34,605 nt of DNA from Clostridiales bacterium (GTDB taxonomy: Bacteria; Bacillota; Clostridia; Lachnospirales; Lachnospiraceae), in assembly GCA_012512995.1 (NCBI GenBank), contig JAAZDA010000177.1:1-34605 (forward strand), in the 5' to 3' direction. The position numbers and the translations under genes are program-made. The notes under the pieces are model-generated. The model ran no database searches and was not told the DNA's origin. It worked only from the letters and a program-made list of their open reading frames with translations. Below are positions 263 to 24,236 of this stretch, piece after piece (position 1 is the stretch's first letter; every line of letters starts with the position of its first letter).

Positions 263-307
263 AACGGGTATCTGTTCATTTGTTGATCAGATACCCGTTA
301 TTTTTTT
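263..307 (+). terminator. Intrinsic terminator-like hairpin
   Basis: 12-bp perfect stem AACGGGTATCTG (263-274) / CAGATACCCGTT (288-299) followed by ATTTTTTT. Confidence 0.6.
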
Positions 308-320: not shown

Positions 321-352
321 GCACCTCATCATTTTGATGTGGTGCTTTTTTT
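321..352 (+). terminator. Second tandem intrinsic terminator-like hairpin
   Basis: GCACCTCATCA / TGATGTGGTGC (one mismatch) followed by T7. Confidence 0.55.
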
Positions 353-436
353 ATTCGCTGGAGGAGCTTATGAAAAAATTTTTTCAACTTTTTTTATTTT
401 TGCCGCGGTTTTTGGCTATTCTCGCTGCCTACCTAT

Positions 437-480
437 TGAGGGGCAAAAAAACTCTCACCTGTACTTTGACAACTGAATAC
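437..480 (+). promoter_or_regulatory. Small hairpin followed by an rrn boxA-like sequence
   Basis: Hairpin TGAGGG..CTCTCA (437-457), then TGTACTTTGACAACTGAATA (460-479), similar to boxA (E. coli TGCTCTTTAACA; Firmicutes rrn ..TCTTTGAAAACT..). The TTGACA inside it has no -10 box at 16-18 nt. Confidence 0.4.
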
Positions 481-484
481 ACAT

Positions 485-733
485 TCATCAGGTACGTTCC
501 TGTGCGGGGGCGAGAGCTCCAGCCGAATGAAGGTGCGCCAAGACCCTCCTGCCCATCCGGGTTATAACGGAAAGCAAGGTGGCGAGCGTTTCCGAACCAT
601 TCTGAAATATCCGACAGCTACGGATATGGCAATGAAACGCTACAGGGCTAACGATACTTCTCTACGGAGCTGGCGGAGAACCCGGCAGGGGTGAGATTCC
701 CATGGACCCGATTCGCTATCGGGCATCTGATGA
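485..733 (+). ncRNA. Putative structured leader RNA (multi-stem)
   Basis: Closing helix TCATCAGGT (485-493) / ATCTGATGA (725-733); GGGGC-GAGA-GCTCC GNRA hairpin (507-520); AGCGTTTC (585-592) / GAAACGCT (634-641) enclosing ATATCCG/CGGATAT (607-627); GGGGTGAGATTCCC (688-701); CCCGAT/ATCGGG (707-723). Confidence 0.55.
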
Positions 734-854: not shown

Positions 855-1679
855 ATGGAAAACTGTAAAGTGATCGCCATCACGAACCAGAAAGGCGGAG
901 TCGGTAAAACGACAACCGCAGTCAATCTCGGTGTGGGACTTGCCGACTCAGGCAAAAAGGTTTTGCTTGTTGACGCTGACCCGCAAGGCAGCTTAACGGT
1001 AAGCCTCGGAGTGAAGAACCCAGATGAACTGGATGTGTCGCTTTCTTCCCTAATGCAGTCGGTCATTGATGATGAACAGCCGCCCAGTGATGCCATTATT
1101 ACGCATCCGGAAGGTGTTGACTTGCTTCCTTCTAACATTGAGTTGTCTGGTATGGAAACCGGCTTGTTCAATGTTATGAGTCGCGAGTATGTTCTGAAAA
1201 ACGCTATCGACGGCATGAAGAAGAATTACGATTATATTTTGATCGACTGCATGCCTTCCCTGGGAATGATGACAATCAACGCACTGGTTGCCGCAGACAG
1301 TGCAATCATTCCATCCCAGCCGAGTTTCCTGTCAACGAAAGGCTTAAATTTGCTGTTGCATTCGATTAACAAAATCAAACGCAGCATAAATCCGAACCTG
1401 AAAATCGATGGGATACTCTTTACTATGGTAGATAACCGCACAAATAACGCTAAGGACATTATCGGAGCTATGCGTGATACAGTGGGCCAGAATATTAGGG
1501 TATTTGATACTGAAATCCCTCACTCGGTTCGCGCAGCTGAATGCAGCGTTACCGGAGAAAGTATCTTCACACACGACAAGGGCGGGAAGGTCGCTGCGGC
1601 ATATGAAGCTTTGACGAAGGAGGTGGAGAGTATTGAGAGAACGTCCCAAAATCGATCTCGGTCTGACTGGGTACGATGA
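855..1679 (+). CDS. parA: ParA/Soj-family ATPase
   Basis: Deviant Walker A QKGGVGKTTT, LLVDADPQG, DYILIDCMPSLG; SD AGGAGG upstream. Confidence 0.95.
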   Translation: MENCKVIAITNQKGGVGKTTTAVNLGVGLADSGKKVLLVDADPQGSLTVSLGVKNPDELDVSLSSLMQSVIDDEQPPSDAIITHPEGVDLLPSNIELSGMETGLFNVMSREYVLKNAIDGMKKNYDYILIDCMPSLGMMTINALVAADSAIIPSQPSFLSTKGLNLLLHSINKIKRSINPNLKIDGILFTMVDNRTNNAKDIIGAMRDTVGQNIRVFDTEIPHSVRAAECSVTGESIFTHDKGGKVAAAYEALTKEVESIERTSQNRSRSDWVR

Positions 1680-2568
1680 GATGTTTATGAATGACCAGGA
1701 ACGTGCTGAGAACCGACTCCCGAAGATCTACGATATTCCGATTGATGAAATCGATGACTTTCCGGACCATCCGTTCAAGGTTCGTCTAGACGAGGACATG
1801 GATCAGCTGGTTGAAAGCGTAAAGAGTCGTGGCGTCATTACTCCTGTCACCCTTCGTCAGAAAGAAGACGGCAGATACGAAATCGTATCCGGTCACAGAC
1901 GCAGAAAGGCCTGCGAGCTTGCCGGACTTGAAACGGTACCGGCTGAAATCAAAAACCTGACCAGAGATGAGGCCATTATTTTGATGGTTGAATCCAACCT
2001 GCAGCGTTCCGTGATTCTTCCAAGCGAGAAAGCCTTTTCTTACAAGATGAGGCTGGAGGCTATGACAAGGCAAGGACAACGTACAGACTTAACTTCGACA
2101 CCAGTGGAGTCGAAGTCTCGTGCAAATGAGGAACTAGGCAATCAGGTCGGAGAAAGCCGTGAACAAATCCGTCGTTACATCCGTCTTACTGAGCTTATTC
2201 CTGAACTTCTTGAGATGGTGGATGAAGGCAGGATTGCAATGCGGCCTGCCGTTGAGCTTTCTTATCTCAATGACATCGAACAGCAGGATCTGCTTCCAGC
2301 TATGGAGATTGCAGACGCCACGCCTTCTCACGTACAGGCCATCAAGATGCGACGGTTCTCAGAAGAAGGCAAACTCACACCAGAAGTCATTGAATCCATC
2401 ATGTGCGAAGAGAAACCCAATCAGAAGGAAAAGGTCAGCATTCGATATGAGGATGCCAAACGATACATTCCTTCAAATGTTCCGTATAAGGAGACTGGGG
2501 CATATATTCTGAAAGCGCTGGAATATTACCACCGTCACCTGGAACGAATGAGAGATGACGCAAGGTAA
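1633..2568 (+). CDS. parB: ParB/RepB/Spo0J-family partition protein
   Basis: ParB motif YEIVSGHRRRKA, ESNLQR and an HTH (ELGNQVGESREQIRRYIRL); TTG start with AGGAGG SD; overlaps the parA end. Confidence 0.93.
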   Translation: MRERPKIDLGLTGYDEMFMNDQERAENRLPKIYDIPIDEIDDFPDHPFKVRLDEDMDQLVESVKSRGVITPVTLRQKEDGRYEIVSGHRRRKACELAGLETVPAEIKNLTRDEAIILMVESNLQRSVILPSEKAFSYKMRLEAMTRQGQRTDLTSTPVESKSRANEELGNQVGESREQIRRYIRLTELIPELLEMVDEGRIAMRPAVELSYLNDIEQQDLLPAMEIADATPSHVQAIKMRRFSEEGKLTPEVIESIMCEEKPNQKEKVSIRYEDAKRYIPSNVPYKETGAYILKALEYYHRHLERMRDDAR

Positions 2569-2574
2569 AGTAAC

Positions 2575-2700
2575 CCCTACGCCAAGGGAGTAGTGTACCC
2601 TTTTGAAGAAAGGAGACTCGTTCCCCCTCTCACACTCTCCCCTTATTATCAACAAGCATCCTGACTACCTGAAAAGAAAGAAGATTCGCAGACTTGCTTA
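2575..2700 (+). other. oriT-like / relaxosome-like non-coding site
   Basis: C-rich tract CCCCCTCTCACACTCTCCCC, then CAACAAGC (2650-2657)...CTTGCT (2693-2698), the same arm pair seen on the minus strand upstream of mobC; contains CATCCTG (2657-2663), resembling the MOBP nic core YATCCTG. Confidence 0.35.
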
Positions 2701-2721
2701 TCAGAAAGCTATCCGTACAAT
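2694..2721 (+). promoter_or_regulatory. Putative sigmaA promoter for the lipoprotein gene
   Basis: TTGCTT (2694-2699) - 16 nt - TACAAT (2716-2721); SD GGAGGT before ATG 2744. Confidence 0.4.
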
Positions 2722-2743
2722 ATGACACTACGGAGGTGGCACT

Positions 2744-3487
2744 ATGAAAAGAACACTGATACTGCTGCTGGCCCTGTTGATGATCACGCTTACGGCCTGC
2801 AGCAATGCGTCTGAAACTTCTTTTTCAGGCAGCGAACCGGAATCAGAAATTGAAGAAGCGTCTTCGTCTGAAACCGAGACAGCCAAAACTGAAGATTCCT
2901 TTTCTCAGGAAGTAAGCGCTGAAACAAATACTGATTCAACAGATCCAATCGATGAAGTAACAAAGAAATCTTCGGAATCTATTACAACAGGAATCACAGA
3001 GGTTGAACCGAAGCAGGATGAGGCACCTTCTTCTCAGGCAGTGAACAATCTGCCACACGATAAAGATAAAGAAAAGGGGTCCAGCACTCCTGAGCCTGAA
3101 GTCCTCCAGCCCAAAACGGAAACAACACCCCCAGAAGAGCCAAAGCCTGTTGAGAGGCCCGAACCAGCCTCAGAGTCGCAAGAAACATCGGTCCAGGAAT
3201 CGGAACCGCAGCCGGAATCTGAACCTGAGCCGGTCCAATCTTTCGATATCGAATACTGGATCAGCTATGCTAAATCTGTAGCTACCGGTAAAGGCTTGGT
3301 TCTGGAAAGTTCTGCAGTTGACTGCTGGGACAATCCGATAACGGCCAATCCGGATTGCATTTACCTTGAACGCGATATTTCAGGATATCTCTCTCGGTAT
3401 GCTGCTGATGAGGATATCACGGACGTCTGGATCTGGTATGAATGTATCGGAGAAAACAAGTATCTGATATACATCGGATACGCTTAA
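2744..3487 (+). CDS. Lipoprotein with long acidic E/S/P/T linker and small C-terminal globular domain
   Basis: Signal peptide with lipobox LTA-C; low-complexity PE/SE-rich middle; aromatic/Cys C-terminal domain (DCWDNPI..., VWIWYE). Confidence 0.85.
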   Translation: MKRTLILLLALLMITLTACSNASETSFSGSEPESEIEEASSSETETAKTEDSFSQEVSAETNTDSTDPIDEVTKKSSESITTGITEVEPKQDEAPSSQAVNNLPHDKDKEKGSSTPEPEVLQPKTETTPPEEPKPVERPEPASESQETSVQESEPQPESEPEPVQSFDIEYWISYAKSVATGKGLVLESSAVDCWDNPITANPDCIYLERDISGYLSRYAADEDITDVWIWYECIGENKYLIYIGYA

Positions 3488-3502
3488 AACAAAACAGAAA
3501 AT

Positions 3503-3545
3503 GGCATGAAAGGGCATCGTAGAAATACGGTGCTTTTTTCATGCC
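3503..3545 (+). promoter_or_regulatory. GAAA-tetraloop hairpin before the adhesin SD (terminator/processing-like)
   Basis: GGCATGAAAGGGCATCGTA-GAAA-TACGGTGCTTTTTTCATGCC; the inner stem is followed by T6. Confidence 0.6.
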
Positions 3546-3562
3546 CTGAAGGAGGAAACTGA

Positions 3563-6500
3563 ATGAAAAATATCTTGAAGAAAGGCATTTCGGGCCTGAT
3601 GGCGGTCCTGGTGTGCCTTACCACTTTTATCGGCATCGGAGCCACTCCGGCCTTCGCTGCCAGTGAAACGGCGGAATCCTACATGGTCTCGTATCCTCGT
3701 GACGGGGATGCTGTTCAGGTTTATGATCAGGACACTTGGGGACATTCCGCCAAGACTTATATGAACGGTTGGTATACGGGTACCTCAAATATGACCACCA
3801 TTCACTGTATGGATTCTTACGATGGCAAGGTCTGCTACTGCATTGAGCCCGGTATTGAAAGAAATGTTGGAGATACCTATACAAAGTTTGATGAGAACTT
3901 CTGGGACAACTATCCCGGCAGCCTGAACAATACTATTGAGCCGTATACGATCAAGCTTCTGCTTGGCCGAATCATGCAGTACGGATACCAGGGCAATATT
4001 TCAACTTCCTGGAAATCTCAGAATTCCGCTGATGCAGACAAGATGTCTCACGCAATCGCCACACAGCTCCTCGTATGGGAAACTGTAGTAGGTGAACGCG
4101 ACGCAGATTTCAATCATGTAAGTACCGGCGGTTGTGACACGGTTAAATCTGTTATCAGTAAGAATCATCCGCTTTACAGCAAGATCAACGCTTACTACGA
4201 CAGTATCGTTTCCAGCGTTAAGAACCATACCACTCTGCCCAGCTTTATGGCAGGCAGCAAGGGAAAAGCGCAGACTGTTGAACTCGAATGGGATGGCAGT
4301 AAGTATATTGCGACTCTCACCGATAGCAACAATGCGCTCTCTAAATTCACCTTTACCGCTAGCGTAACCGGCGTGAAGTGTACCGTAAGCGGTAATAAGC
4401 TTATTGTGACTTCTGATACGGCACCAGCTGATGATGTTACGATCACTGCTACCAAAGAGCAAATGAGATCCGGCATTATCGTTTGGTCCGATGGAGCTCA
4501 TCGCTCCAGCGGCGTTCAGGATACCGTCACCTATTCCGCATCTGTCAGCGACCCTGTGAAGGCCTATATCAACCTGAAGGTCAGCTACGGTTCTGCCAAG
4601 ATCATCAAGACATCTGAAGACGGTAAGGTAGACGGTATCAGCTTTACTATTACCGGCGAAGGGATCAATGAATCCGTTAAGACTAACATCAAGGGCGAAA
4701 TCACCGTGGACAACCTGAAGCCCGGTACCTATACCGTGACTGAACAGGGCTACGACAAGTATGAGCCTCAGGAAACCCGCCGCGTTACTGTGCTTGCCGG
4801 TCAGACTGCGACCGTCTCCTTCAACAACGTACTCCGTCGCGGGGATCTCGTTGTGACCAAGACCTCTGAAGATGGCCTTGTGGAAGGTGTGAAGTTCCAT
4901 CTTTTCGGTACCAGTCTCAGCGGCATTGAAGTCAACGAATTTGCTGTTACCGGAAAGGACGGCAAGGCCCATTTCGATGATGTTCTTATCGGAACCGGCT
5001 ATACCATCGAAGAGATCGACACCGCTGTCCGCTATGTGGTTCCTGCAAATCAGACCGCAGCCGTTGAATGGAACTCCGTTACCAACAAGAGCTTCAGCAA
5101 CGTACTCAAGAAGTTCAATGTGATTGTTACCAAGTCTGATATTGAAAATGGTAATTCTCAGGGCGACGCTTCTCTTGCGGGTGCGAAGTACGGTATCTAC
5201 AAGGGCGAACAGCTCGTTGACACCTACGTTACCGATCAGAACGGCCAGTTCACCACCACCTACTATGTCTGCGGAAATGACTGGAGCATCCGAGAGATCG
5301 AACCTTCCGAAGGATATCTCCTGGACACCAATTCCTATCATGTCGGCGCAGAGGCTGAAAACTACACAGTGGAACTCAATTCCGCCCCTGCCGTTGATGT
5401 CTTTGAGCAGGTCATCAAGGGAAATATGACCATCATCAAGCACACCGATGACGGCGAGACTCAGATCGAAACGCCTGAAGGAGGGGCTGAATTCTCAGTT
5501 TATCTCAAGTCCTCAGGCAGCTATGACGCAGCCAAGGATACTGAGAAGGATTATCTGGTCTGCGATGAAAACGGATTTGCCCAGAGCAAGGACATGCCCT
5601 ACGGCATTTACACTGTGCATCAGGTAAAAGGCTGGGAAGGCCGTGAACTGATGAAAGACTTCGATGTCTTCATTGCAAAGAACGGCGCGACTTACCGATA
5701 TCTGATCAACAACGCCAACTTTGAATCCTTCATCAAGGTCATCAAGGTTGACGCGGAAACCGGAAACACCATCCCCTACGCGGGTGCTGCTTTCCAGACC
5801 TACACTCCTGAAGGCGAGCTCGTGAGCATGACCTTCACTTATCCTGAAATCACTACCATCGATACCTTCTACACCGATGCTGCCGGTATGCTGATCACTC
5901 CGGAACGCCTGGAATACGGCAAGGGCTATTCGCTGATTGAAGTCACTGCGCCTTACGGATACGTGCTGAACTCTGATCCTGTGAAGTTTGACGTTACCCA
6001 GGATGATTCCACCGAGGAAGGCGGCATCACCGTTGTTGAGGTCAATAAGGAAAACATGGCGCAGAAGGGCGTCATTAAGATCTCCAAGTTCGGTGAAGAG
6101 TTCGCAAGCGTCACCGAGAACGGCGGGATCTACCAGCCTGTTTACGAGGTAAATGGCCTTGCGGGTGCAACCTACGAGATTACCGCAGCTGAGGATATCT
6201 ATACGCTGGACGGTACTCTCCGCTACAGCGCAGGCGAAGTTGTGGATACCGTAACTACCAATGAAGATGGCATTGCCGAAAGCAAGGCGCTCTATCTTGG
6301 TAAGTACGAGATCTGCGAGACTGAAGCTCCTTACGGCATGGTTATCAATAATGAGATCCATTCCGCAGAGCTTGTTTATGCAGGACAGGAAATCGAGATC
6401 ACCGAAACCTCCGCAAGCTTTACCAATGACCGTCAGAAGGCAGAAGTATCTCTTTCCAAGGTCATGGCACAGGATACGAAGTTCGGCATCGGCTCCGGTA

Positions 6501-7783
6501 ATGAGCTTTCCGCTGTTACCTTTGGCCTGTATGCTGCTGAGGATCTGACCGCAGCTGACGAAACCATGATTCCTGAAGGCGGCCTCATTGAGATCCTGTC
6601 CGTAAGCGAAAACGGCAAGGATTCCGTAAAGTCGGATCTTCCTTTCGGCAGCTATTACGTGCAGGAAATCAGCACGGACTGCCACTATATTCTCTCTGAT
6701 GAGAAATATGAGATCACCTTCGATTATGCCGGTCAGGACGTAAACATCGTCGATCTGAAGGCAAACGAAGGCAAGAGCATCGTGAACGAATTGATCTATG
6801 GTGAAGTCCATGGCATGAAAAAGGATGACAATGGCAACGGTCTCGGCGGTGCGACCATCGGTCTTTTTACCACGGAAGGCAAGGAACCGATCATGACTAC
6901 CGTTTCTGCTGAAGACGGAAGCTTCTCCTTCGAGGATGTTCCTTACGGAGAATATGTTGTCCGTGAGATCAGCGCACCTGAGAAATACGTTATGGATGAT
7001 AAGCCTTATGACGTGAAGATCGACGCAGACGGTGCTGTCGTTGAAATCGAAATCATCAACAAGCTCATTCACGGCAATGTTCAGCTGACCAAGGTGGACG
7101 CCAACTATCCGGATCATCATCTGTCCGGCGCTGAGTTCGAGATCTACCAGAATGGCGAGCTTATCGGCAAGATGGAAGAACTCTCTGACGGCGTTTATGA
7201 GATGGATGATCTGCCTTATGGTGATTACACCCTGAAGGAAACCAAGGCTCCGGAAGGCTTCTACCTGGATGATAACACCTATGCCTTCTCCATCAAGGAA
7301 GACGGCAAGACTTTAATCGTTGAAAATGAAGCTGGTAAGGGGTTCATCAACAACGCTCAGGTTGGCGATATCCGTATCGAAAAGACATCTGAAGATGGCG
7401 TTTTGAAAGGCTTCACTTTCCGCGTGGAAGGCACCGATATTACCGGCAATGCTTTCAGCAAGGACTATGTGACTGACGAAAACGGTCAGATCCATATCGA
7501 GGGTCTCCGCGTCGGTGATTATGTGATCTCCGAGGTGTCCAACAAGGCTAACGAGAATTACGTCCTGCCTGACAATGTAACCGTCACGGTTCATGAGGGA
7601 AAGACCGTTGTAGCTAAGTTCTATAACGAACTGAAACCGGTCATTTCTGACATTCCTAAGACCGGTGACAGCACGAACCTGACGCTGTGGGCTTCTCTTG
7701 CGGGTGCTTCTCTCCTGGGAGCCTGCGCCGCAGCGTTTGTGACTTTCCGAAAAAAGAAAGAAGGTGGCAAACATGAGCGCTAA
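3563..7783 (+). CDS. Sortase-anchored surface adhesin: N-terminal Cys-Gln thioester domain (TED) plus multiple SpaA/CnaB-type isopeptide repeats
   Basis: Signal peptide (PAFA-AS); YCIEP and ATQLLVW motifs; repeated K..ED/G..F...G...Y.V.E..AP.GY domains (KTSEDG x3); C-terminal IPKTG + hydrophobic helix + RKKK. Confidence 0.9.
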   Translation: MKNILKKGISGLMAVLVCLTTFIGIGATPAFAASETAESYMVSYPRDGDAVQVYDQDTWGHSAKTYMNGWYTGTSNMTTIHCMDSYDGKVCYCIEPGIERNVGDTYTKFDENFWDNYPGSLNNTIEPYTIKLLLGRIMQYGYQGNISTSWKSQNSADADKMSHAIATQLLVWETVVGERDADFNHVSTGGCDTVKSVISKNHPLYSKINAYYDSIVSSVKNHTTLPSFMAGSKGKAQTVELEWDGSKYIATLTDSNNALSKFTFTASVTGVKCTVSGNKLIVTSDTAPADDVTITATKEQMRSGIIVWSDGAHRSSGVQDTVTYSASVSDPVKAYINLKVSYGSAKIIKTSEDGKVDGISFTITGEGINESVKTNIKGEITVDNLKPGTYTVTEQGYDKYEPQETRRVTVLAGQTATVSFNNVLRRGDLVVTKTSEDGLVEGVKFHLFGTSLSGIEVNEFAVTGKDGKAHFDDVLIGTGYTIEEIDTAVRYVVPANQTAAVEWNSVTNKSFSNVLKKFNVIVTKSDIENGNSQGDASLAGAKYGIYKGEQLVDTYVTDQNGQFTTTYYVCGNDWSIREIEPSEGYLLDTNSYHVGAEAENYTVELNSAPAVDVFEQVIKGNMTIIKHTDDGETQIETPEGGAEFSVYLKSSGSYDAAKDTEKDYLVCDENGFAQSKDMPYGIYTVHQVKGWEGRELMKDFDVFIAKNGATYRYLINNANFESFIKVIKVDAETGNTIPYAGAAFQTYTPEGELVSMTFTYPEITTIDTFYTDAAGMLITPERLEYGKGYSLIEVTAPYGYVLNSDPVKFDVTQDDSTEEGGITVVEVNKENMAQKGVIKISKFGEEFASVTENGGIYQPVYEVNGLAGATYEITAAEDIYTLDGTLRYSAGEVVDTVTTNEDGIAESKALYLGKYEICETEAPYGMVINNEIHSAELVYAGQEIEITETSASFTNDRQKAEVSLSKVMAQDTKFGIGSGNELSAVTFGLYAAEDLTAADETMIPEGGLIEILSVSENGKDSVKSDLPFGSYYVQEISTDCHYILSDEKYEITFDYAGQDVNIVDLKANEGKSIVNELIYGEVHGMKKDDNGNGLGGATIGLFTTEGKEPIMTTVSAEDGSFSFEDVPYGEYVVREISAPEKYVMDDKPYDVKIDADGAVVEIEIINKLIHGNVQLTKVDANYPDHHLSGAEFEIYQNGELIGKMEELSDGVYEMDDLPYGDYTLKETKAPEGFYLDDNTYAFSIKEDGKTLIVENEAGKGFINNAQVGDIRIEKTSEDGVLKGFTFRVEGTDITGNAFSKDYVTDENGQIHIEGLRVGDYVISEVSNKANENYVLPDNVTVTVHEGKTVVAKFYNELKPVISDIPKTGDSTNLTLWASLAGASLLGACAAAFVTFRKKKEGGKHER

Positions 7784-7859
7784 AGCGATCATCGGAATCT
7801 GCCTCGTGGTATTCATTGTCGCGGGGCTGATCTTCCTAAAGCTCAGAAACAGAAAATAA
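7773..7859 (+). CDS. 28-aa single-pass membrane peptide (MSAKAIIGICLVVFIVAGLIFLKLRNRK)
   Basis: Not in the ORF track; ATG overlaps the adhesin end with SD GAAGGTG; clean TM helix plus basic tail. Confidence 0.6.
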   Translation: MSAKAIIGICLVVFIVAGLIFLKLRNRK

Positions 7860-7871
7860 TGGACAAACTAA

Positions 7872-7899
7872 GGGCAGCATCTGAAATACGGTGCTGCCC
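7872..7899 (+). promoter_or_regulatory. Hairpin sharing a 13-mer with the 3503-3545 hairpin
   Basis: GGGCAGCATC-TGAAATAC-GGTGCTGCCC followed by GGTTTT and TGAAGGAGG SD. Confidence 0.55.
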
Positions 7900-7923
7900 G
7901 GTTTTATGAAGGAGGTAATGCTT

Positions 7924-8175
7924 ATGGGAATGTTTCCTGATGAGAAATATGTGGAGGACCTCAGAAAGAGATTTCCTGAGGGCTGCAGGATCTGCCTTGA
8001 CTATATGGGCGACGATCCGCGTCCCATTCCTCCCGGAACCAAAGGAACGGTGAAGCACGTCGATGATATCGGCACAGTCCACTGCGACTTTGATAACGGC
8101 AGGCGTCTCGGCCTGGTACCCGGTGAGGATTCCTTTCACAGGATCAAAGAGAAAGACAGGGGTGATGAGCGATGA
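7924..8175 (+). CDS. DUF4314-family small protein
   Basis: Recalled signature: P.G.RI.L..M.DDP.PIPPGTKGTV..VDDIGTVH..FDNGR.LGLVPGEDSF; start placed at ATG 7924 after GGAGGT. Confidence 0.85.
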   Translation: MGMFPDEKYVEDLRKRFPEGCRICLDYMGDDPRPIPPGTKGTVKHVDDIGTVHCDFDNGRRLGLVPGEDSFHRIKEKDRGDER

Positions 8176-8921
8176 GTATTGAGCTTACGATTCGTCCTAC
8201 CACCCCGACGGAGGACATGTACACCTATACTCAGTCCTCGCAGATTCAGGGGCAGACAGGCTGCATCGGCCATCTGAGAGCCGATATGGATTCCAACGGA
8301 GCAGGCTTCTTCTCAACCTGGGATGATCATCGCGGATATCTCAAGACGGATCAGTTCAAGGAAGAGTTCGATCAGGTGATCAATCGCCTGCGCTTCAGTG
8401 TCGGTGATGAAAACGCTATCCGGCATGAAGACGGTGACTGCTTCCTGAAGAACAGATCCGCACTTGCTCAGTATTGCTGGAGTCAGCCCTCTGCCCGAAT
8501 GAAGACGGACGAAGAAAACTACGGTTTCCGAGTGGATACTGACAACTACACCTATATGATGAGACTCAACCCGAACAAGGGCGTTTATAACTTGTACTGC
8601 TACTGCTACCGGCGTGACTGGCTGGATCAGCATCTGCATAATGCGGAGCGTGGTATCCGGTTCATTGATAGTCATTACAACAACCTGTTCAAGGTTCCGG
8701 ATGGCGGGAAGGTGCGGGTCGCGTATTCGGACGGCGAGGTACGGGATGTGGCCTGCCGCTATATCGATGAGTATCATCTGGAGTTCGGCGGTGACAGCTG
8801 CAATCTGCTACATATCTGCGAACTGGCAGAAAAAATGGAGAAGAACGGTCACAAAATCGAGCCTATCGATGTGATGCCGGAACCTGAAAAGAAAAGCAGA
8901 AACAGAGGTGAGGCTCGATGA
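8172..8921 (+). CDS. Conserved ICE hypothetical protein (two small domains)
   Basis: 249-aa ORF coupled by ATGA overlaps at both ends; motifs GCIGHLRAD, YNLYCYCY and IRFIDSHYNNLF.VPDGG typical of Clostridiales ICE proteins. Confidence 0.8.
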   Translation: MSIELTIRPTTPTEDMYTYTQSSQIQGQTGCIGHLRADMDSNGAGFFSTWDDHRGYLKTDQFKEEFDQVINRLRFSVGDENAIRHEDGDCFLKNRSALAQYCWSQPSARMKTDEENYGFRVDTDNYTYMMRLNPNKGVYNLYCYCYRRDWLDQHLHNAERGIRFIDSHYNNLFKVPDGGKVRVAYSDGEVRDVACRYIDEYHLEFGGDSCNLLHICELAEKMEKNGHKIEPIDVMPEPEKKSRNRGEAR

Positions 8922-9100
8922 GATATTTCGTTGATATCAAAGCTACAAGCTACGCAACCATTACGGTGGAGGCAGATTCCCTTGAGGAAGCCGAAGAAAA
9001 GGCGCAGGAAGCCTATTACAACGGAATGGTCGAATGGAGGAACTGCGATCTCGATATCGAGGCGCGGATCATGGAAAAGGATCGAGGTGAAGAAAGATGA
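8918..9100 (+). CDS. DpnD/PcfM-like small protein
   Basis: Y.V.I......I.VEADSLEEAEEKAQEAY pattern; ATGA coupling. Confidence 0.65.
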   Translation: MRYFVDIKATSYATITVEADSLEEAEEKAQEAYYNGMVEWRNCDLDIEARIMEKDRGEER

Positions 9101-9390
9101 TGGAAGATTACAAGCGTGAAAGCTTTTACGGTGATGACAATTTCAAGGACTATGAGTTCATTTCCGATGAAGGCACCTTTGAGTGCGAATACGTCGGTCG
9201 CTGGATGAACAAGGACGAAAACCTTGTGTGCTGCTTCGACTTTGATGACGGACGTAAGGTCCGCTCTATGGCCTGGCAGAACAACGGCTATTACAAGCTG
9301 GAGCAGATTCCTCTCGGAAGCAGGCTCCGCCTTGAATTCAAGATGTCCAATACCGGCAAAAACTACCTGAGAAAAGTAGTGATTCTCTGA
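9097..9390 (+). CDS. Hypothetical beta-rich protein (possible OB-fold)
   Basis: 97-aa coupled ORF; alternating hydrophobic strands, G.RLRLEFK....GKNYL. The fold is a guess. Confidence 0.7.
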   Translation: MMEDYKRESFYGDDNFKDYEFISDEGTFECEYVGRWMNKDENLVCCFDFDDGRKVRSMAWQNNGYYKLEQIPLGSRLRLEFKMSNTGKNYLRKVVIL

Positions 9391-9935
9391 TGGATAGCCG
9401 GGACAGACTGATATGGACCAGTCAACCTGACTTTGAAGAGTACCGGGAAGATCTCAAGGCAGACTTCCCGGAATGCTCTGAGGATGAGCTGCGCGATATC
9501 CTGCAGCAATCCAACTGGGACAGGCTGCAGTTTGATCGTGAGGAACTGGCCCATTTATATGATGACAGCATCCTAGTGATTGCGGATCTCGGCTTATGGG
9601 ACGGAAGACATACCGCCTATAAGGAAATCGAGTCCGGGAATCTCATGGATTGCTTTGAAACGTCCAGAGATACGCTGGATATTGAATGGTTCGTGGATAA
9701 GAACGGCGATCTTCGCTGCAATGATTATCACCACGATGGTACCAATCATTATCTCTACCGCGTATGGAAAGACAATATATCAGAGGCGCAGAAAGATAAT
9801 CTGCGCCTCAAACTTTATCACGGAGACTACAGCCGAGCGGATGTTACCCGCTGTACGAAAAGGTTGGGAGATGAAATCGGGAAGGTTTACGGCTGGACCT
9901 TCCCGGAAAGAAAGGAAAGGAGTTGCGAAAGATGA
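9390..9935 (+). CDS. Conserved ICE hypothetical protein
   Basis: 181-aa ORF, TGATG-coupled; ADLGLWDGR and HHDGTNHYLYR motifs. Confidence 0.8.
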   Translation: MDSRDRLIWTSQPDFEEYREDLKADFPECSEDELRDILQQSNWDRLQFDREELAHLYDDSILVIADLGLWDGRHTAYKEIESGNLMDCFETSRDTLDIEWFVDKNGDLRCNDYHHDGTNHYLYRVWKDNISEAQKDNLRLKLYHGDYSRADVTRCTKRLGDEIGKVYGWTFPERKERSCER

Positions 9936-10360
9936 TAGATACTTGTGTATGCTGCGGCGTGTATGTGCCTGAAGGCTTTATGATCTGCCCCGGATGCTTG
10001 AAATACGAGCCGAAGATCCCGGCAAATAAGAAGGACGCCATTCTCGAATACCTGAGAAAGTACCACTGCGGAAGACGCAACGCGGTTCACAGCAAAGAGC
10101 TTCAGGAGATCTTCAAACTGGATGACCGTGCGGTACGCCGCAAAATCAGTGCTCTTCGTCAGGAAGGACATCCGATCTGCAGCGGAGATATGGGCTACTA
10201 CTATGCCGAAAGCCAGAAGGAAATCAATTCGACCGTCAATAGGCTCAATGATCTCGTGACGGGAGTTGCTAATGCCAGAACCGGTCTGCTTTATGCTCAG
10301 GTTATGGAACCGGTCATGACCGTAAAGGTCACCCTTAATATGGCAGGCGGTGATGCTTAA
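9932..10360 (+). CDS. Zinc-ribbon + winged-HTH DNA-binding protein
   Basis: N-terminal CVCCG..CPGC, then SKELQEIFKLDDRAVRRKISALRQEGHPICS...GYYY (HTH_11-like); ATG 9932 overlaps the upstream TGA. Confidence 0.75.
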   Translation: MIDTCVCCGVYVPEGFMICPGCLKYEPKIPANKKDAILEYLRKYHCGRRNAVHSKELQEIFKLDDRAVRRKISALRQEGHPICSGDMGYYYAESQKEINSTVNRLNDLVTGVANARTGLLYAQVMEPVMTVKVTLNMAGGDA

Positions 10361-11397
10361 TGCCGGAGGATATTTATAAGCAGGATCGCTTCTATGTGAA
10401 TCTGGATCAGGACGAGATCATTTGGATGTACCAAAACCCTGATGCCGTCAGCGGCGACCAGTTTGTGTGTAACAGATTCGGAGTCGAGCTGCTCAGAGAA
10501 GCGATACGTGAGTGTCCCATTGGTCCTGACAGCGGTTTTGAGGCATATCCGGTCTATGATTATATCGAGGAACATAGCAGACAATACCTGACGGATGTGG
10601 GCGATTTCCTTTATCCGTTGGAGGAAGAAAAGTTTAGGAGCGAGCCTGTAGCCGTTGCTCAAGGGCACGGCACCTTGGAAACATTACAGCTGTTGTTCCA
10701 GGCAAAAGAACTGATCGATCAGTTCTGCGTGGAAGAGTTCGGAAGTCCCGCCGATTTCAAAGATCTGAAAAAGGTGGGGCTTGCTTATACCACTACGGAA
10801 GATGATAAGCATGAGATCCAGGCCTATGCAAACCTCATTGATCATCAGACAGAGGTTTATCTGGACGGTGAAATCATAGCTACTCAAAAAGTAGAATCCC
10901 TGAAGCAATACGTAGAGAACCTTCTCCCGTATTTGGACTTCAACGAGCTCGTTGACATTCCCGAATGGGTAATGGATGAGCATCTTGGCCGTGGAGCTTT
11001 CCGTGAGGACCTGCAGTTCATGCAGCATCATGCCTGGGGAAATACCTATGACCTTTGTTTTGAGGTCAGCAGCTATATGTATGGCGGCGGACTGGCGATT
11101 GAGCTTTATGACAGAACAGACGGTGATTTGGAACCGTATTCAAATCTCACTGTGAATATCGATGCCAGACTTTCGGGACCGGATTGTGCTTTTGTGGACA
11201 CCAATAATTTTGGTACTGCTGAGGAACTGATTCGGAACAACAAGCTGGGTAAGCCTACCGGAAGGATCGGATACAGCGGCTACTGTTCCTATCCTGAGTA
11301 TCGCTTTGATATGAAGGAAATCTACAAGTACTGCATCAACCCGGATGACATTCCGGCTATTGAGCCGAAAAAGAAAGAAAGGAGCTATGAGAGATGA
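10360..11397 (+). CDS. Multi-domain acidic protein with C-terminal DUF4313 domain
   Basis: C-terminal Y..GGLAIEL....EPY..LTVN....AFVDTNN......LGKPTGR...SGYC.YPEY.F recalled as DUF4313. Confidence 0.75.
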   Translation: MPEDIYKQDRFYVNLDQDEIIWMYQNPDAVSGDQFVCNRFGVELLREAIRECPIGPDSGFEAYPVYDYIEEHSRQYLTDVGDFLYPLEEEKFRSEPVAVAQGHGTLETLQLLFQAKELIDQFCVEEFGSPADFKDLKKVGLAYTTTEDDKHEIQAYANLIDHQTEVYLDGEIIATQKVESLKQYVENLLPYLDFNELVDIPEWVMDEHLGRGAFREDLQFMQHHAWGNTYDLCFEVSSYMYGGGLAIELYDRTDGDLEPYSNLTVNIDARLSGPDCAFVDTNNFGTAEELIRNNKLGKPTGRIGYSGYCSYPEYRFDMKEIYKYCINPDDIPAIEPKKKERSYER

Positions 11398-11480
11398 AGA
11401 AAGAAATCATTTTTATAGACGAGGACACCCTCACTCCGGAAGAATGGGAGGCGATTGCAGATGAGCAGACCGAAGAATAA
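11394..11480 (+). CDS. 28-aa acidic peptide (MKKEIIFIDEDTLTPEEWEAIADEQTEE)
   Basis: Not in the ORF track; ATGA overlap with the upstream stop, SD AAGGAG (11379-11384), overlaps the ArdC start. Confidence 0.5.
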   Translation: MKKEIIFIDEDTLTPEEWEAIADEQTEE

Positions 11481-12468
11481 AGAAGAATACCGCGTAGAGC
11501 TTGCGGAAGCCTTTGCTCATGTGCTTGAGGAAAAGGGCCTTGAATGGAAGAAAGAATGGACCGGTCAGGGCGGCGGTGCTCCGCATAATGGAATTACCAA
11601 AGCCTGTTACCGGGGAACCAATGCTTTCTGGCTGTCCCTGATTTCCATGATGAAGGGCTACGACGATCCCCGTTGGGTGACCATGATCCAGATCATGGAT
11701 AACGATGGAAAATACCATCCGAACCAGCAGTGGCATCTGAAGAAAGGCAGCAAGGCCACTTATGTTGAATACTGGTATCCTTACGACACCAAAGATAAGA
11801 AAGCTCTCACCTGGGAACAGTACAAGGATGCCCTGGCGAACGGCAGAGACGAAAAGGAATTTACTCTCTCCACCAGATACACGGCAGTATTTAATGCTCG
11901 TGATGTGGAAGGCATGCCGGAGTTTCAGATCCAGAGCAACCCGGAAGTGTCTCAGGATGAACTGATCCGAAAGCTTTCCGAAGGAATGGGCGTGGAGATC
12001 TTTACTGATGGCGGTGATCAGGCGTACTATTCACCGTCACAGGATAAGATTCATCTACCGACTCCTGAATCCTTCATCAGCGAATATGCCTTCAATGCTA
12101 CGGCACTGCATGAGCTTTCACACAGCACCGGCCATCCTACAAGGCTGAACAGACCGCAGAGCGCTTTCTTCGGAACCAGCCAGTATGCATATGAGGAGCT
12201 TGTGGCGGAGATGTGTTCCTGCTTTATGGGAGCTGAGCTTCATACAGAAGCTACTCCTGAGCATATCGATAACCACAAAGCCTATGTGCAATCCTGGATC
12301 CAGGCGATTACGGAAAAGCCTGAAACGCTGGTTAAGGCAATCAAAGACGCTCAGGCAGCTGCCAACTATATGGACTTCAAAGCCGGGCTTATTACTGAAG
12401 TGGAATACGCCAAGACCTGCGGCTCAGTAATGGAGGTCAAGCCGAAGGACAGAAGTCTGGAACGCTGA
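11461..12468 (+). CDS. ardC: ArdC-like antirestriction protein (DUF1738 ssDNA-binding + zincin/MPTase domain)
   Basis: W.K.W....P.N..T...YRG.N..L, DPRW.T..Q, VFNA; HELSHSTGH (HExxH) and YAYEELVAE; AYVQSW; ATG 11461 after GGGAGG. Confidence 0.88.
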   Translation: MSRPKNKEEYRVELAEAFAHVLEEKGLEWKKEWTGQGGGAPHNGITKACYRGTNAFWLSLISMMKGYDDPRWVTMIQIMDNDGKYHPNQQWHLKKGSKATYVEYWYPYDTKDKKALTWEQYKDALANGRDEKEFTLSTRYTAVFNARDVEGMPEFQIQSNPEVSQDELIRKLSEGMGVEIFTDGGDQAYYSPSQDKIHLPTPESFISEYAFNATALHELSHSTGHPTRLNRPQSAFFGTSQYAYEELVAEMCSCFMGAELHTEATPEHIDNHKAYVQSWIQAITEKPETLVKAIKDAQAAANYMDFKAGLITEVEYAKTCGSVMEVKPKDRSLER

Positions 12469-12533
12469 AATCGCACATTTGTAATGGTTGATTCTTCCGT
12501 GTACCATAAAGAAAAAACGGAAGGTGAAGATAT

Positions 12534-12689
12534 ATGTTTAAGAAGAAAGCTGAAAAAAGAGTCGTTGAATTGAATCCTTCTGAGGTTCGCCTTCTGCTTA
12601 CTGCGCTGATGAATTTCAGAAACAAGGTTGCAAAGACGGGAAGACCTACGGAAGATATCAATGAGCTGATCCTGATGGTCACCAAGTAA
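12534..12689 (+). CDS. 51-aa protein, paralog of the 18094-18291 ORF
   Basis: MFKKKAEKRVVELNPSEVRLLLTALMNFRNKVAKTGRPTEDINELILMVTK; SD GAAGGTG; not in the ORF track. Confidence 0.8.
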   Translation: MFKKKAEKRVVELNPSEVRLLLTALMNFRNKVAKTGRPTEDINELILMVTK

Positions 12690-12754
12690 AAGAGACTCTA
12701 TAATACGATAACGAGCCGTGAAGTTTATGAGAAATCAGAACTTCACGGCTCGTT
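12676..12754 (+). promoter_or_regulatory. Putative promoter plus 16-bp perfect hairpin
   Basis: TGGTCA - 17 nt - TATAAT (12699-12704); stem AACGAGCCGTGAAGTT (12710-12725) / AACTTCACGGCTCGTT (12739-12754) with inner TGA-GAAA-TCA. Confidence 0.5.
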
Positions 12755-12777
12755 CTATATACGGAGGTGGAACTACG

Positions 12778-13263
12778 ATGATTTATTTCGGAGTGTTGTT
12801 TTTGGCAAAGGTTTTGGACAACGCTCTATCAACTACAAAAACCATAATGATACAGAGAAGCCGGTGGATCCTTGCGGGCATTGCGGTGATTCTGTCCGAC
12901 TTCATTTATTACTGGATTACGAAGCGCGTGGTATCTGCCGACGGAGAGCTGGCAATGCTCATTGTTTCCGTCGCGGGCGGTATCGGCTGCAGTCTGGCCT
13001 GTCTGGTCAGCGATAAACTTTCCAAGGACAGGACCTACGTAAATGTAATCATGTCAGATAATCTGGAAGCTATGAAAGCATTCCGTGATTTTCTGGCGGA
13101 GCATCATATCACCAATGTGGCAGCCGACACATATACCCTCGACTGGAATAAGAAAACAATTTCTATTACTGCATACCCGGAGACAAAGGCTGAGAGTCGC
13201 CTGATCCGCGATTATATCGCAAACAGTCATTTGAAGTTCAAGCTTGTGGTTCAGCCGGGTTAA
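12778..13263 (+). CDS. Membrane protein, UPF0316/DUF5698-like (three TM helices + soluble C-terminal domain)
   Basis: LFLAKVLDNALSTTKTIMIQR resembles the UPF0316 N-terminus; GGIGCSL helix; ATG 12778 after GGAGGT. Confidence 0.7.
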   Translation: MIYFGVLFLAKVLDNALSTTKTIMIQRSRWILAGIAVILSDFIYYWITKRVVSADGELAMLIVSVAGGIGCSLACLVSDKLSKDRTYVNVIMSDNLEAMKAFRDFLAEHHITNVAADTYTLDWNKKTISITAYPETKAESRLIRDYIANSHLKFKLVVQPG

Positions 13264-13279
13264 GAGAAAGAGAGGTCAC

Positions 13280-13612
13280 ATGAACAGTGAAGAACTGAAT
13301 GTCGCGGTCTATAACAAAATGAACCGCGAGCAGGCGATCTATACCGACTGGCTTCTGACACTTCCTCCTGAAGAGATCCTTCAACATTCCTATGAGTATA
13401 CAGTCCGTCAGGATATTCTGTTTGCCATGGAATACATGGAGCTTCAGCCGAAGCAGTGCGAGGCGCTTCTGAAATCCAAGGACATCATCGGTGACGTGCT
13501 TTCCGACTTCAACAAGATCGAGACCGGATATATGGATATCATCCGGGATTGCATAGAAGGCCGTGCGGACAAGATGATCTGTCTGGAAGCAGAACGCAAG
13601 GAGGCAAGATAA
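13280..13612 (+). CDS. DUF3848-family protein
   Basis: Y.KM..EQ..Y..WLL..PPEEIL.H.YEYTVR.DIL recalled as DUF3848; ATG 13280 after GAGGT. Confidence 0.8.
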   Translation: MNSEELNVAVYNKMNREQAIYTDWLLTLPPEEILQHSYEYTVRQDILFAMEYMELQPKQCEALLKSKDIIGDVLSDFNKIETGYMDIIRDCIEGRADKMICLEAERKEAR

Positions 13613-14559
13613 TGCCATATGTAGATCAGCAGCTTCTGGAGCAGGCACGGCAGGTGGATCTTCTGAGTTATCTCCAAAGCAGTGACCCTGGAAACCTTGT
13701 GAGGATCTCCGGGAACAACTACTGTACGAGAGAACATGACAGCTTGAAGATTTCTAACGGCAAGTGGTACTGGTTCTCCAGAGGCATCGGCGGTGTTTCC
13801 GCCGTAGATTACCTGATGAAAGTAAAAGAATATTCCTTCCCCGATGCGGTGGAGGCAGTGCTAGGCAGGACGGTTGCAGAAAGGCCGTCCTTTTCTTATG
13901 CCAGAAGGCCTGCAGAGCCGAGGAAACTCCTGATGCCGGAGCTGGTAAAGGATCCGGTACAGGCCAGAAAGTATTTAGAAAAGCGTGGAATTCATCACGA
14001 AATTATTGATTATTGCGTGAAACACAGCCTGCTTTTCGAGACAAGTGAGTATCACAATGCGGTGTTCGTCGGCTACGACGCTCACGGCATTGCAAGATAC
14101 GCCGCCATGCGCGGCACAATATCAGCCTACAAGGGAGAGGTCACCGGGAGTGACAAACACTTCTCGTTTTCAATGTCGGAAACCCCTGACGCGGAACACG
14201 TCCATCTTTTCGAGTCCGCTATTGACGCGATGAGCTTTGCGTCCCTTGCGGTGATGGAAGGACGTGACTGGAAACAGGACGCCCTCCTTTCCCTTGCAGG
14301 CGTATTCCAAACCAAACGAAAGGATGTGGTGCCTGTTGCTCTAAGTCAATACCTGACCGATCATCCGTCGGTAAAAGAGATCCACCTTCATCTTGATAAC
14401 GATGAGGTGGGACGCGGAGCGGCTGCCGGAATCGTCAGAGGGCTCTCGGATCGATATCAGGTCCTTGATGAGCCTCCGGATTCCCGCTACAAGGATATGA
14501 ACGATCAGGTCAAAGACAAAGTAAGAATGATGAAAAGGAAGGAGGAACCTGAACGATGA
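13612..14559 (+). CDS. DUF3991 + Toprim domain primase-like protein
   Basis: EHDSLKIS..KWYWFSRGIGG, YL.KRGI, LFESAIDAMS, LHLDND.VGR, KD.ND Toprim motifs. Confidence 0.88.
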   Translation: MPYVDQQLLEQARQVDLLSYLQSSDPGNLVRISGNNYCTREHDSLKISNGKWYWFSRGIGGVSAVDYLMKVKEYSFPDAVEAVLGRTVAERPSFSYARRPAEPRKLLMPELVKDPVQARKYLEKRGIHHEIIDYCVKHSLLFETSEYHNAVFVGYDAHGIARYAAMRGTISAYKGEVTGSDKHFSFSMSETPDAEHVHLFESAIDAMSFASLAVMEGRDWKQDALLSLAGVFQTKRKDVVPVALSQYLTDHPSVKEIHLHLDNDEVGRGAAAGIVRGLSDRYQVLDEPPDSRYKDMNDQVKDKVRMMKRKEEPER

Positions 14560-15290
14560 TGGAAATTTCAATTTACCAGATTGATCTGGACAAGGATGAG
14601 AACCGTGTTGCTTTTATCGGTCACGAAGCCCTGGAGCATTATCAGGGCACTTCGGAGATCGATTCCGCAATCTATGAAAAGGTCTACGAAGGAACCGTTG
14701 ATGCAAAGGATCTTGAAGATGTCTTCCGCATTTTCAACGTAGATCAGCCGGAGGATTACAGAGGCAGATCGCTCTCTGTTTCCGATATCGTTGAGACTGT
14801 TGATGAGAGAACCGGAGAATGTACCTGGCATTACTGCGATACCATCGGATTCAAGGATGTTGCTTTTGACCCCGATAAGGTATCGGAAATGAGGGCAACT
14901 CAGATCACGGTCGTATACATGGAACCCGGAAAGCTTGCAAAAACCGCCGAAATTGGCACCAGACTTGAAGACTTGCAGGCCGCTGTCGGCGGCTGCATCG
15001 AGGCTTTCTATCCCTTTGAGGATGAAGTCTGTATCGTCTGTAATGACGAAGGCAAGTTCAACGGCATGCAGCTGAACCGTGGCATCTACGGTGAAGACGG
15101 CAAACTCATGGACATTATTGCCGGACCGTTTTTCATCTGTGACTGCAGCGGTGAGAATTTTGGTTCTCTCAGCCAGGAGCAGCTTGAGCGATACGAAAAA
15201 CTCTATAAGAAGCCGGAGCGCTTCTACAGACAACACGGCGAGATTATCGCCGTACCTTATGAACCCAGAGAAAAATCTAACGAAAGATGA
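14556..15290 (+). CDS. YodL-domain + DUF3846 fusion protein
   Basis: YEKVY.G...LEDVF.IFN...PEDYRGRSLSVSDIV (YodL); LEDLQAAVGG.IE..VCNDEGK..G..LNR..DIIAGPFFI (DUF3846). Confidence 0.88.
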   Translation: MMEISIYQIDLDKDENRVAFIGHEALEHYQGTSEIDSAIYEKVYEGTVDAKDLEDVFRIFNVDQPEDYRGRSLSVSDIVETVDERTGECTWHYCDTIGFKDVAFDPDKVSEMRATQITVVYMEPGKLAKTAEIGTRLEDLQAAVGGCIEAFYPFEDEVCIVCNDEGKFNGMQLNRGIYGEDGKLMDIIAGPFFICDCSGENFGSLSQEQLERYEKLYKKPERFYRQHGEIIAVPYEPREKSNER

Positions 15291-15300
15291 GGAGAATGAT

Positions 15301-15504
15301 ATGGCGAAATTTGATGTATTCGTAACCATGCTCGATGTCGAGCATGCCATTGTGGAAGCGAAGGATGAGCAGGAAGCTCGTGAGAAGGTTGACCATTATA
15401 TTGACCATCTGATTCAGAAGGACATTATGGACCCTGGTGATCTCATGAATGCAAATATCGAAATCAGACCAGTCGAGTGGAACCGTCTGGAAGGCCTTGA
15501 GTAA
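15301..15504 (+). CDS. Small DpnD/PcfM-like protein (67 aa)
   Basis: MAKFDVFV......IVEAKDEQEAREKV; ATG 15301 after GAGGAG (the track ORF from 15079 is over-extended). Confidence 0.65.
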   Translation: MAKFDVFVTMLDVEHAIVEAKDEQEAREKVDHYIDHLIQKDIMDPGDLMNANIEIRPVEWNRLEGLE

Positions 15505-15600
15505 AAGGCACGGGTCCGTGGCATTTTACCAGCCAGCAAGCATCGCCTTTGGGAACCCAAAGTCAGCTTGTTGGGGTAGCCCCAAACCCTTACTGAAGAA
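15505..15600 (-). other. Putative origin of transfer (oriT)
   Basis: Non-coding gap directly upstream of mobC-relaxase with clustered inverted repeats CACGG/CCGTG (15509-15520), CTTTGGG/CCCAAAG (15547-15562), TTGGGG/CCCCAA (15571-15585); the minus strand reads CAACAAGC...CTTGCT. Confidence 0.65.
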
Positions 15601-15616
15601 ATCGAGGTGAACACAA

Positions 15617-20432: not shown

Positions 20433-20449
20433 TCCGGTTATCCCAAAAA

Positions 20450-20479
20450 CGGGGCGGCTCAGGTAACCGGGCCGTCCCG
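20450..20479 (+). promoter_or_regulatory. GC-rich intergenic hairpin after the pilin-like gene
   Basis: CGGGGCGGCTC-AGGTAACC-GGGCCGTCCCG directly before an AGGAGG SD; no U-tract. Confidence 0.55.
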
Positions 20480-20496
20480 GATAGGAGGTGAGATGA

Positions 20497-21333: not shown

Positions 21334-21341
21334 GGCGAATC

Positions 21342-24211: not shown

Positions 24212-24236
24212 GCCTGCTCTTTGATGGAGGTAACTT

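What the first reader, a model, noticed from the sequence alone, without database searches (positions are those of the whole stretch)
485..733. ~250-nt multi-stem leader RNA upstream of parA
Seen: at least six compatible helices, including a long-range closing stem (485-493/725-733), G-U pairs and a GNRA loop that favour RNA on the + strand. From memory, short blocks (GCGCCAAGACC, GGCGAGCG, GATACTTC, GAGAACCCGGCAGGGGTGAGATTCCC) resemble non-coding sequence of Tn916-like elements, which I cannot verify here. Known: pLS20-type conjugation operons use an RNA component (conAn2) for processive antitermination. Inference: an antiterminator, ribozyme-like or regulatory RNA controlling the transfer operon.
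Basis: partly seen in the sequence, partly recalled or inferred. Interest (0 to 1): 0.7.

Follow-up and report, generated by a model that had tools for sequence, protein, structure and literature searches.

The report
canT-family antiterminator RNA heading conjugation operon
This stretch is a conserved, folded RNA related to canT of the transposon Tn916, and it likely lets RNA polymerase read through stop signals so that a gut bacterium's mobile element can express its 26-kb set of DNA-transfer genes.

Summary
The RNA is real and runs from about 460 to 733. Its 3' part (648-705) is the Rfam pemK motif (63.9 bits, cut-off 34.8). The same motif lies in the Tn916-type canT antiterminator, starting exactly at the published inactivating S3 site. 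Homology to canT also covers the 5' two-thirds (profile E=4e-11 without the pemK part). In 69 diverse homologs the core helices covary. The comparison adds a four-way junction, a loop-loop pseudoknot (616-618 with 715-717), two kink-turn-like motifs and a 5' copy of the rRNA boxA signal. Here the RNA leads a parA-parB to type IV secretion operon, behind tandem terminator-like hairpins; the operon ends in a 17-bp-stem terminator. Best reading (0.8): a cis-acting processive antiterminator. Activity and transcription were not shown for this copy. Published canT truncations argue that boxA is not needed for short-range read-through. My paper searches found no pemK-canT link, fold or boxA in print, but this scan reached the same reading before on other DNA (six earlier notes). 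New member of a known kind.

The parts
263..307 (+). Terminator-like hairpin with U-tract, first of two upstream of the leader (predicted insulator against host read-through)
   Evidence: -23.0 kcal/mol fold; 15 of 15 parA-type loci have at least one such hairpin
321..352 (+). Second terminator-like hairpin with U-tract
   Evidence: -14.3 kcal/mol
415..457 (+). Predicted promoter region (no sigma-70 consensus) and small hairpin 437-457 just before boxA
   Evidence: no sigma-70 site in 1-1000; a similar GTGARGGG-type block 30-45 nt before boxA in many homologs and before sig7 of the pCF10 element; hairpin; promoter role is inference
460..479 (+). boxA-like signal (rRNA operon type)
   Evidence: 116 of 120 matches with enough flank carry it, against 23 of 540 control windows; the same 19-mer pattern marks 3 rRNA spacers and 4 family members in one complete genome
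485..733 (+). Folded RNA body closed by P1 (485-493 with 725-733)
495..653 (+). 5' domain: P2 (495-506 with 638-653), optional GNRA hairpin P3 (507-520), P4-P6 arm (525-602), hairpin P7 (607-627)
521..636 (+). Kink-turn-like motif 1 (AGC 521-523 with GC-NNN-GA 629-635); motif label is recalled, not from a call
   Evidence: G629 69/69, C630 69/69, G634 65/69, A635 69/69
536..588 (+). Kink-turn-like motif 2 (CGC-NNN-GA 536-543 with GA-GCG 584-588); arm beyond it missing in about 9 of 69
   Evidence: G542 57/69, A543 58/69, G584 52/69, A585 60/69
616..717 (+). Predicted loop-loop pseudoknot, AGC 616-618 with GCU 715-717
   Evidence: 54 of 68 parsed homologs have 3 or more complementary bases, 33.5 +/- 3.5 on permutation; 92.6% paired in A1; held-out set p = 0.008
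648..705 (+). Rfam pemK motif RF02913: four-way junction with UNCG hairpin (660-669), P9 (670-688) and T-loop-like hairpin (689-701); 648-650 aligns to the canT S3 site
   Evidence: 63.9 bits
707..723 (+). Hairpin P11 carrying the 3' half of the pseudoknot
855..26824 (+). Co-directional operon: parA, parB, adhesin, ArdC-like, toprim, mobC, relaxase, VirD4, VirB2, PrgI, VirB4, sortase, CHAP
3513..3541 (+). Intergenic terminator-like hairpin with U6 before the adhesin gene, kept in a second element
7872..7899 (+). Intergenic terminator-like hairpin after the adhesin gene (weak U-tract)
26831..26885 (+). 17-bp-stem terminator closing the conjugation operon, ahead of a perfect sigma-70 site (26957-26985) and a BREX cluster
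   Evidence: -35 kcal/mol, z = -6.7

Best explanation
The leader is a homolog of the Tn916 canT RNA and likely acts in cis as a processive antiterminator: once transcribed it would fold, stay bound to the RNA polymerase that made it, and let it pass the terminators inside the 26-kb partition and conjugation operon. Shown here: homology to canT over its length, the conserved fold, the gene context. Inferred: the pseudoknot would clamp the 5' domain onto the four-way junction to form the polymerase-binding surface; boxA would load host NusB-S10, more likely aiding range or protection from Rho than basic read-through; the upstream tandem hairpins would keep host transcription out so that only the element's own promoter makes the RNA; the 17-bp terminator would resist antitermination and end the operon.
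For: pemK model hits the Tn916-type element of pCF10 at 55 bits starting on the ATA that the canT(S3) allele changes; the published 162-nt deletion removes P7, the junction and half of P11. The pCF10 element matches the paper's landmarks (ATA at +283, 83-codon orf5, codon 30 GCA). A profile built without the three Tn916/Tn1549-like rows finds it at E=1.3e-25; the 5' part alone at 4.2e-11, and 3e-4 without boxA. A650, inside the S3 site and outside my search pattern, is kept in 67 of 69. canT is cis-acting, orientation-specific, processive and needed for conjugation (PMC11658703). Covariation. Of 52 loci with flanks, 17 lead into parA/parB and 21 have a recombinase or integrase within 3 kb downstream. 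14 of 14 pemK hits from a phylum sample carry the 5' domain and 13 of 14 boxA. B. subtilis boxA AUGAUCUUUGAAA binds NusB (PMC13753749, passages); the host encodes a NusB-family protein and Rho. Long stems resist conAn antitermination (PMC10325885 section 22); a long-stem terminator of unrelated sequence also closes the syntenic operon in OY725878.1.
Against: No activity or transcript was shown for this copy. Identity to the Tn916-type RNA is only 35% over the alignment. The active 452-nt canT fragment starts inside boxA (+126; boxA starts at +121), fragments of 400, 373, 349 and 341 nt stay active, and S3 had little effect in the 400-nt fragment, so boxA and perhaps part of the fold are dispensable in that reporter; the fragment ends are in a figure I could not see. 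Terminator-like sites in the operon are not clearly above shuffles (24 vs 17.6 +/- 4.7; 18 vs 12.8 +/- 3.8, both strands). A third element has only an 11-bp hairpin without U-tract after its CHAP gene, so the long end stem holds in 2 of 3. Plain folding of the Tn916-type RNA does not recover helix P2a. The pseudoknot pair 616-717 is not significant alone (E about 3-7). No sigma-factor gene for the predicted promoter was found in this genome with my queries.
Confidence: 0.8

Rival explanations
1. The RNA is mainly a folded scaffold that presents boxA, so the element borrows the host rRNA antitermination complex (NusB-S10-NusG-NusA) and the fold has no polymerase-modifying activity of its own.
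For: boxA precedes 116 of 120 matches and 13 of 14 held-out hits; in one complete genome the 19-mer occurs only in rRNA spacers and in this family.
Against: Published canT fragments that lack an intact boxA are active, and a deletion that leaves boxA intact is dead.
Confidence: 0.08
2. In the parA-leading elements the RNA has been repurposed as a local switch (attenuator or translation control of parA, or a protein or ligand sensor) and not as a processive antiterminator.
For: Different position from Tn916: directly in the leader; further hairpins lie between it and the parA start (749-815). Rfam lists pemK as cis-regulatory.
Against: No U-tract terminator follows the RNA on +; downstream genes vary (parA, PemK-like, xis, recombinases) while the fold is kept.
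Confidence: 0.08
3. It is a ribozyme or a trans-acting structural RNA whose link to antitermination is indirect.
For: Large, compact fold with tertiary motifs.
Against: No ribozyme or intron family at E up to 10; canT did not complement in trans.
Confidence: 0.04

Closest known systems
canT of Tn916 (Wirachman and Grossman 2024, PMC11658703)
   Same: Homologous over boxA, P1, P2, both kink-turn-like blocks, P7, junction and P11; same pseudoknot bases AGC/GCU; upstream of conjugation genes in the transcript.
   Different: 35% aligned identity; short UNCG hairpin where Tn916 has a long arm; extra GNRA hairpin and longer P6 arm; sits in the leader of the operon behind insulating hairpins, so coupling to excision is not obviously needed.
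Rfam pemK RNA, RF02913
   Same: Full-model hit, 63.9 bits over cut-off 34.8.
   Different: The model covers 58 of about 275 nt; no PemK gene among the 32 window proteins scanned; a PemK-like gene follows in 11 of 52 loci.
conAn2/ConAn1 of pLS20 (PMC8191782)
   Same: RNA at the start of a long conjugation operon with long-range closing repeat; long-stem end terminator (PMC10325885).
   Different: Needs the ConAn1 protein encoded just upstream; none here. Sequence homology to conAn2 was not tested.
rRNA operon boxA antitermination signal (PMC13753749)
   Same: Same 5' sequence block, preceded by a small hairpin.
   Different: Followed here by a 250-nt folded RNA on a mobile element; NusB binding not tested.

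Membership tests
Rfam pemK (RF02913) | Score above the gathering cut-off over the whole model | tested here: met
   63.9 vs 34.8 bits, positions 1-61 of 61
canT-type antiterminator | Sequence homology to the Tn916 canT region | tested here: met
   E=1.3e-25 full, 4.2e-11 for the 5' part, against the pCF10 Tn916-type element, not Tn916 itself
canT-type antiterminator | Keeps the positions whose loss kills canT (S3 site, 162-nt deletion) | tested here: met
   A650 kept (67 of 69); all helices of the deleted part present. Window reads CTA where Tn916 reads ATA
canT-type antiterminator | Sense orientation upstream of conjugation genes with terminators between | tested here: met
   the internal terminators are predictions
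canT-type antiterminator | Cis-acting, processive read-through of heterologous terminators | not testable with these tools
   needs a reporter assay
canT-type antiterminator | Transcribed | tested here: inconclusive
   only assembled contigs were available
conAn (pLS20) system | conAn1 protein gene directly upstream of the RNA | tested here: not met
   only a family-less 95-aa frame overlapping the RNA in 1-850
conAn (pLS20) system | Homology to conAn2 | not tested
   no conAn2 sequence was fetched
rRNA-type boxA | Same motif as in rRNA operon spacers of related bacteria | tested here: met
   3 of 7 pattern matches in G400 lie in 16S-23S spacers
rRNA-type boxA | Binds NusB-S10 | not testable with these tools
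   shown only for B. subtilis rrnO boxA (PMC13753749)
Self-cleaving ribozymes and group II introns | Match to a described family model | tested here: not met
   none among 14 matches at E up to 10 in 1-1000

The most novel reading that the evidence does not exclude
A widespread family of 230-400 nt RNA antiterminators on Bacillota conjugative and mobilizable elements, of which canT is the one tested member and pemK a fragment, joins a pseudoknotted polymerase-binding fold to a stolen rRNA boxA, so that the elements co-opt the host Nus machinery for 25-kb processivity without any antitermination protein of their own.
Probability: 0.35. Interest if true: 0.75.

Novelty: new member of a known kind. 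Interest (0 to 1): 0.5.

Why it matters
The canT paper left the RNA's structure and limits open and could not recognise distant relatives. The alignment gives limits, a fold, a pseudoknot with compensatory changes and a host-factor signal, each directly testable. It also gives a likely function to an orphan Rfam family and extends canT-type control to parA-led conjugative elements of gut Clostridia, where it would be the switch for transfer-gene expression.

Tried and rejected
Single-sequence folding: not significant, no strand preference. First collection scan found 0 matches because my gap length was wrong; corrected. A covariance model of the full RNA could not be calibrated in the time allowed; profile HMMs were used, so E-values ignore structure. 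The Tn916 reference record is not in the collections; the pCF10 element stood in. RNA evidence: eight runs were laid, all as contigs. One RNA-library contig covers 446-777 only and another 409-763, but their ends differ, DNA can be in such libraries and depth cannot rank parts: no evidence either way. Folding wild-type and S3 forms of the Tn916-type RNA did not recover P2a in either, so the effect of S3 was not modelled. Sigma-factor gene for the promoter: not found with my queries in this 88% complete genome nor among 17 proteins at the far end of the OY725878.1 element. The CHAP gene of the element was found in only 1 of 5 further genomes at high identity. A link to PemK toxin regulation was rejected for this locus: no PemK gene here. 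A possible pairing of boxA with the segment at 755-760 was seen by eye in a few homologs and not tested.

Full report
Observation. The window is one whole contig. Bases 485-733 lie in a non-coding stretch ahead of parA (855-1679). Rfam gives one hit in the window: pemK, RF02913, 648-705 on +, 63.9 bits against a cut-off of 34.8. No ribozyme or intron model is among the 14 matches at E up to 10 in 1-1000. Downstream, all main frames to 26824 are on + and encode a conjugative system: ParA, ParB, an adhesin, ArdC-like, toprim, MobC, relaxase, VirD4, VirB2, PrgI, VirB4, sortase and CHAP proteins, then a BREX cluster.

Homologs. A pattern scan of one genome per species returned 120 stretches, with about 400 estimated in the collection; most titles name Bacillota, a few other phyla. 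Across the loci held, 130 matches were parsed, 104 distinct full-length sequences kept and 69 left at under 90% identity (duplicates and kin are among the 130). Positions 653-658, 676-682 and 690-700 were fixed by my pattern, so their invariance is not evidence; indeed the GAGAA loop varies in hits found by the Rfam model alone. As a held-out test, 12 of 141 genomes of the phylum have a pemK hit; all 14 hits outside this window carry the 5' domain by a profile trained only on the 5' part (E at most 6e-6), though only 3 of 14 fit my pattern, and 13 of 14 have boxA (two were elements seen earlier and some are close kin). So the Rfam motif is the 3' piece of a longer RNA.

Structure. On the structure-blind alignment of 69 sequences and 260 columns, 11 pairs beat the maximum of two tree-based nulls: 675-683, 674-684, 661-668, 709-721, 689-701, 662-667, 672-686, 614-620, 707-723, 529-603, 610-624 (my own R-scape-like script, not R-scape). 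On 36 shorter members, a 65-pair model is 87.8% paired, with 51 pairs changed on both sides; slid controls give 35-46% (the model leans to this alignment, and helix 4 is out of register in about 10 rows). The fold is: P1 closing stem; P2 leading past an optional GNRA hairpin to a junction with the P4-P6 arm and hairpin P7; a four-way junction (657-704) with a UNCG hairpin, P9 and a T-loop-like hairpin; hairpin P11. The loops of P7 and P11 are complementary: AGC/GCU here and in Tn916, UGC/GCA in most, and GGC/GCC, UGG/CCA, UAC/GUA, GGU/ACC, GAU/AUC in others. 54 of 68 parsed sequences have at least 3 such pairs against 33.5 +/- 3.5 (maximum 46) in 1000 permutations. In the held-out set I gave 11 of 14 (three near-duplicates dropped), 10 parsed, mean 3.5 against 2.76 +/- 0.25, p = 0.008. 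The names kink-turn, T-loop and UNCG are recalled consensus labels; the base counts are.

Identity with canT. Wirachman and Grossman (PMC11658703; I read parts 1-5 of 11, sections 30 and 41, passages and the S1 Data rows; figures not seen) showed that the orf8-xis region of Tn916 is a cis-acting, orientation-specific, processive antiterminator, most likely RNA, and did not pursue its structure. The Tn916-type element on pCF10 fits the paper's landmarks. The pemK model hits it at 55 bits, starting on the ATA changed in the dead S3 allele. Profiles built without it and two like rows find it at E=1.3e-25, by the 5' part alone at 4.2e-11, and without boxA at 3e-4. The dead 162-nt deletion takes out P7, the 3' strand of P2, the junction and half of P11. 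A vanB-linked element on pMG2200 has the motif at the same place before xis.

boxA. A boxA-like block stands 128-273 nt before the core in 116 of 120 matches with enough flank, against 23 of 540 control windows. In the genome of L030 an exact 19-mer pattern has 7 matches: 3 in 16S-23S spacers and 4 at the 5' end of family members, two of them seen only by my profile; in G179 it is 2 of 2 at family members. B. subtilis boxA binds NusB (PMC13753749, passages). The host has NusB-family and Rho genes. Against an essential role: the active 452-nt canT fragment begins five bases inside boxA, and fragments down to 341 nt are active.

Context. Of 52 loci with flanks, 17 lead into parA/parB like this one, 20 follow a sigma-70 region 4 gene, 21 precede a recombinase or integrase and 11 a PemK-like gene (classes overlap). 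15 of 15 parA-type loci with enough flank have a terminator-like hairpin 30-330 nt before boxA, against 2 of 16 chosen loci of the other type; that control is imperfect because it is mostly coding DNA. No sigma-70 promoter is found; a block like the one before sig7 recurs 30-45 nt before boxA. A preprint reports Sig7-8 as a split sigma factor for that promoter (10.64898/2026.10.01.756105, passages), but I found no such gene here. The operon ends in a 17-bp terminator; in pLS20 a 15-bp stem resists antitermination (PMC10325885, abstract and section 22). The syntenic operon in OY725878.1 ends likewise; a third element does not. Terminator counts inside the operon are not clearly above chance.

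Mechanism. Most likely (0.8) the RNA is a cis-acting processive antiterminator for the transfer operon. Homology, fold and context are shown; polymerase binding, the role of the pseudoknot, NusB loading, insulation and resistance of the end terminator are inferred. Transcription is not shown.

Novelty. Searches for 'pemK motif' (0 papers), 'pemK RNA', 'RF02913', canT with Tn916 and antiterminator (2 listed), kink-turn with antitermination, and boxA with conjugative terms showed no paper linking pemK to canT or describing the fold or boxA; I judged most from listings, and read one passage each of 10.1101/2020.02.04.933952 and PMC11701678, which mention pemK only as an improved structure. That pemK comes from the 2017 survey PMC5737381 is recalled: its main text lacks the word and its supplement could not be read, and it may describe a longer motif. 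Most subscription papers are not searched. For conAn I saw passages of PMC8191782. Six earlier notes of this scan give the same reading on other genomes; I saw them after reaching mine and they are not independent evidence. Verdict: new member of a known kind, interest 0.5.

Noticed in passing
window 27282-34605: BREX type 1 cluster (brxA, brxB, brxC, start of pglX) with a DUF4145 protein and a HEPN pEK499_p136 protein inserted between brxC and pglX; perfect sigma-70 site at 26957-26985.
   Followed up: no
window 12712-12752: 18-bp inverted repeat (-27 kcal/mol, weak U-tract) just after a sigma-70-like site at 12676-12704; possible internal promoter with operator.
   Followed up: no
window 3513-3535 and 7872-7899: The two hairpins flanking the adhesin gene share the loop-and-stem word GAAATACGGTGC.
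   Followed up: partly
window 749-815: Two overlapping hairpin options between the RNA and the parA start, one about 17 bp long; a GGGG..TCGAGG..AAAT block here recurs in homologs.
   Followed up: no
L168 1618-1900 and L167 35256-35546 (OY725878.1): Two parA-led elements in tandem, each with its own copy of the RNA behind two or three terminator-like hairpins.
   Followed up: partly
L051, L064, L074, L108: Four parA-led elements lie directly behind a gene of one tRNA-synthetase cluster, a possible shared insertion site.
   Followed up: no
L154 2186-2415: Rfam SQ2397 (RF03532) lies between orf9 and the sig7 promoter region of the Tn916-type element.
   Followed up: no
G000:C210:1712-1730 (L190): The only other exact boxA 19-mer match in this genome; no family match there.
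   Followed up: no
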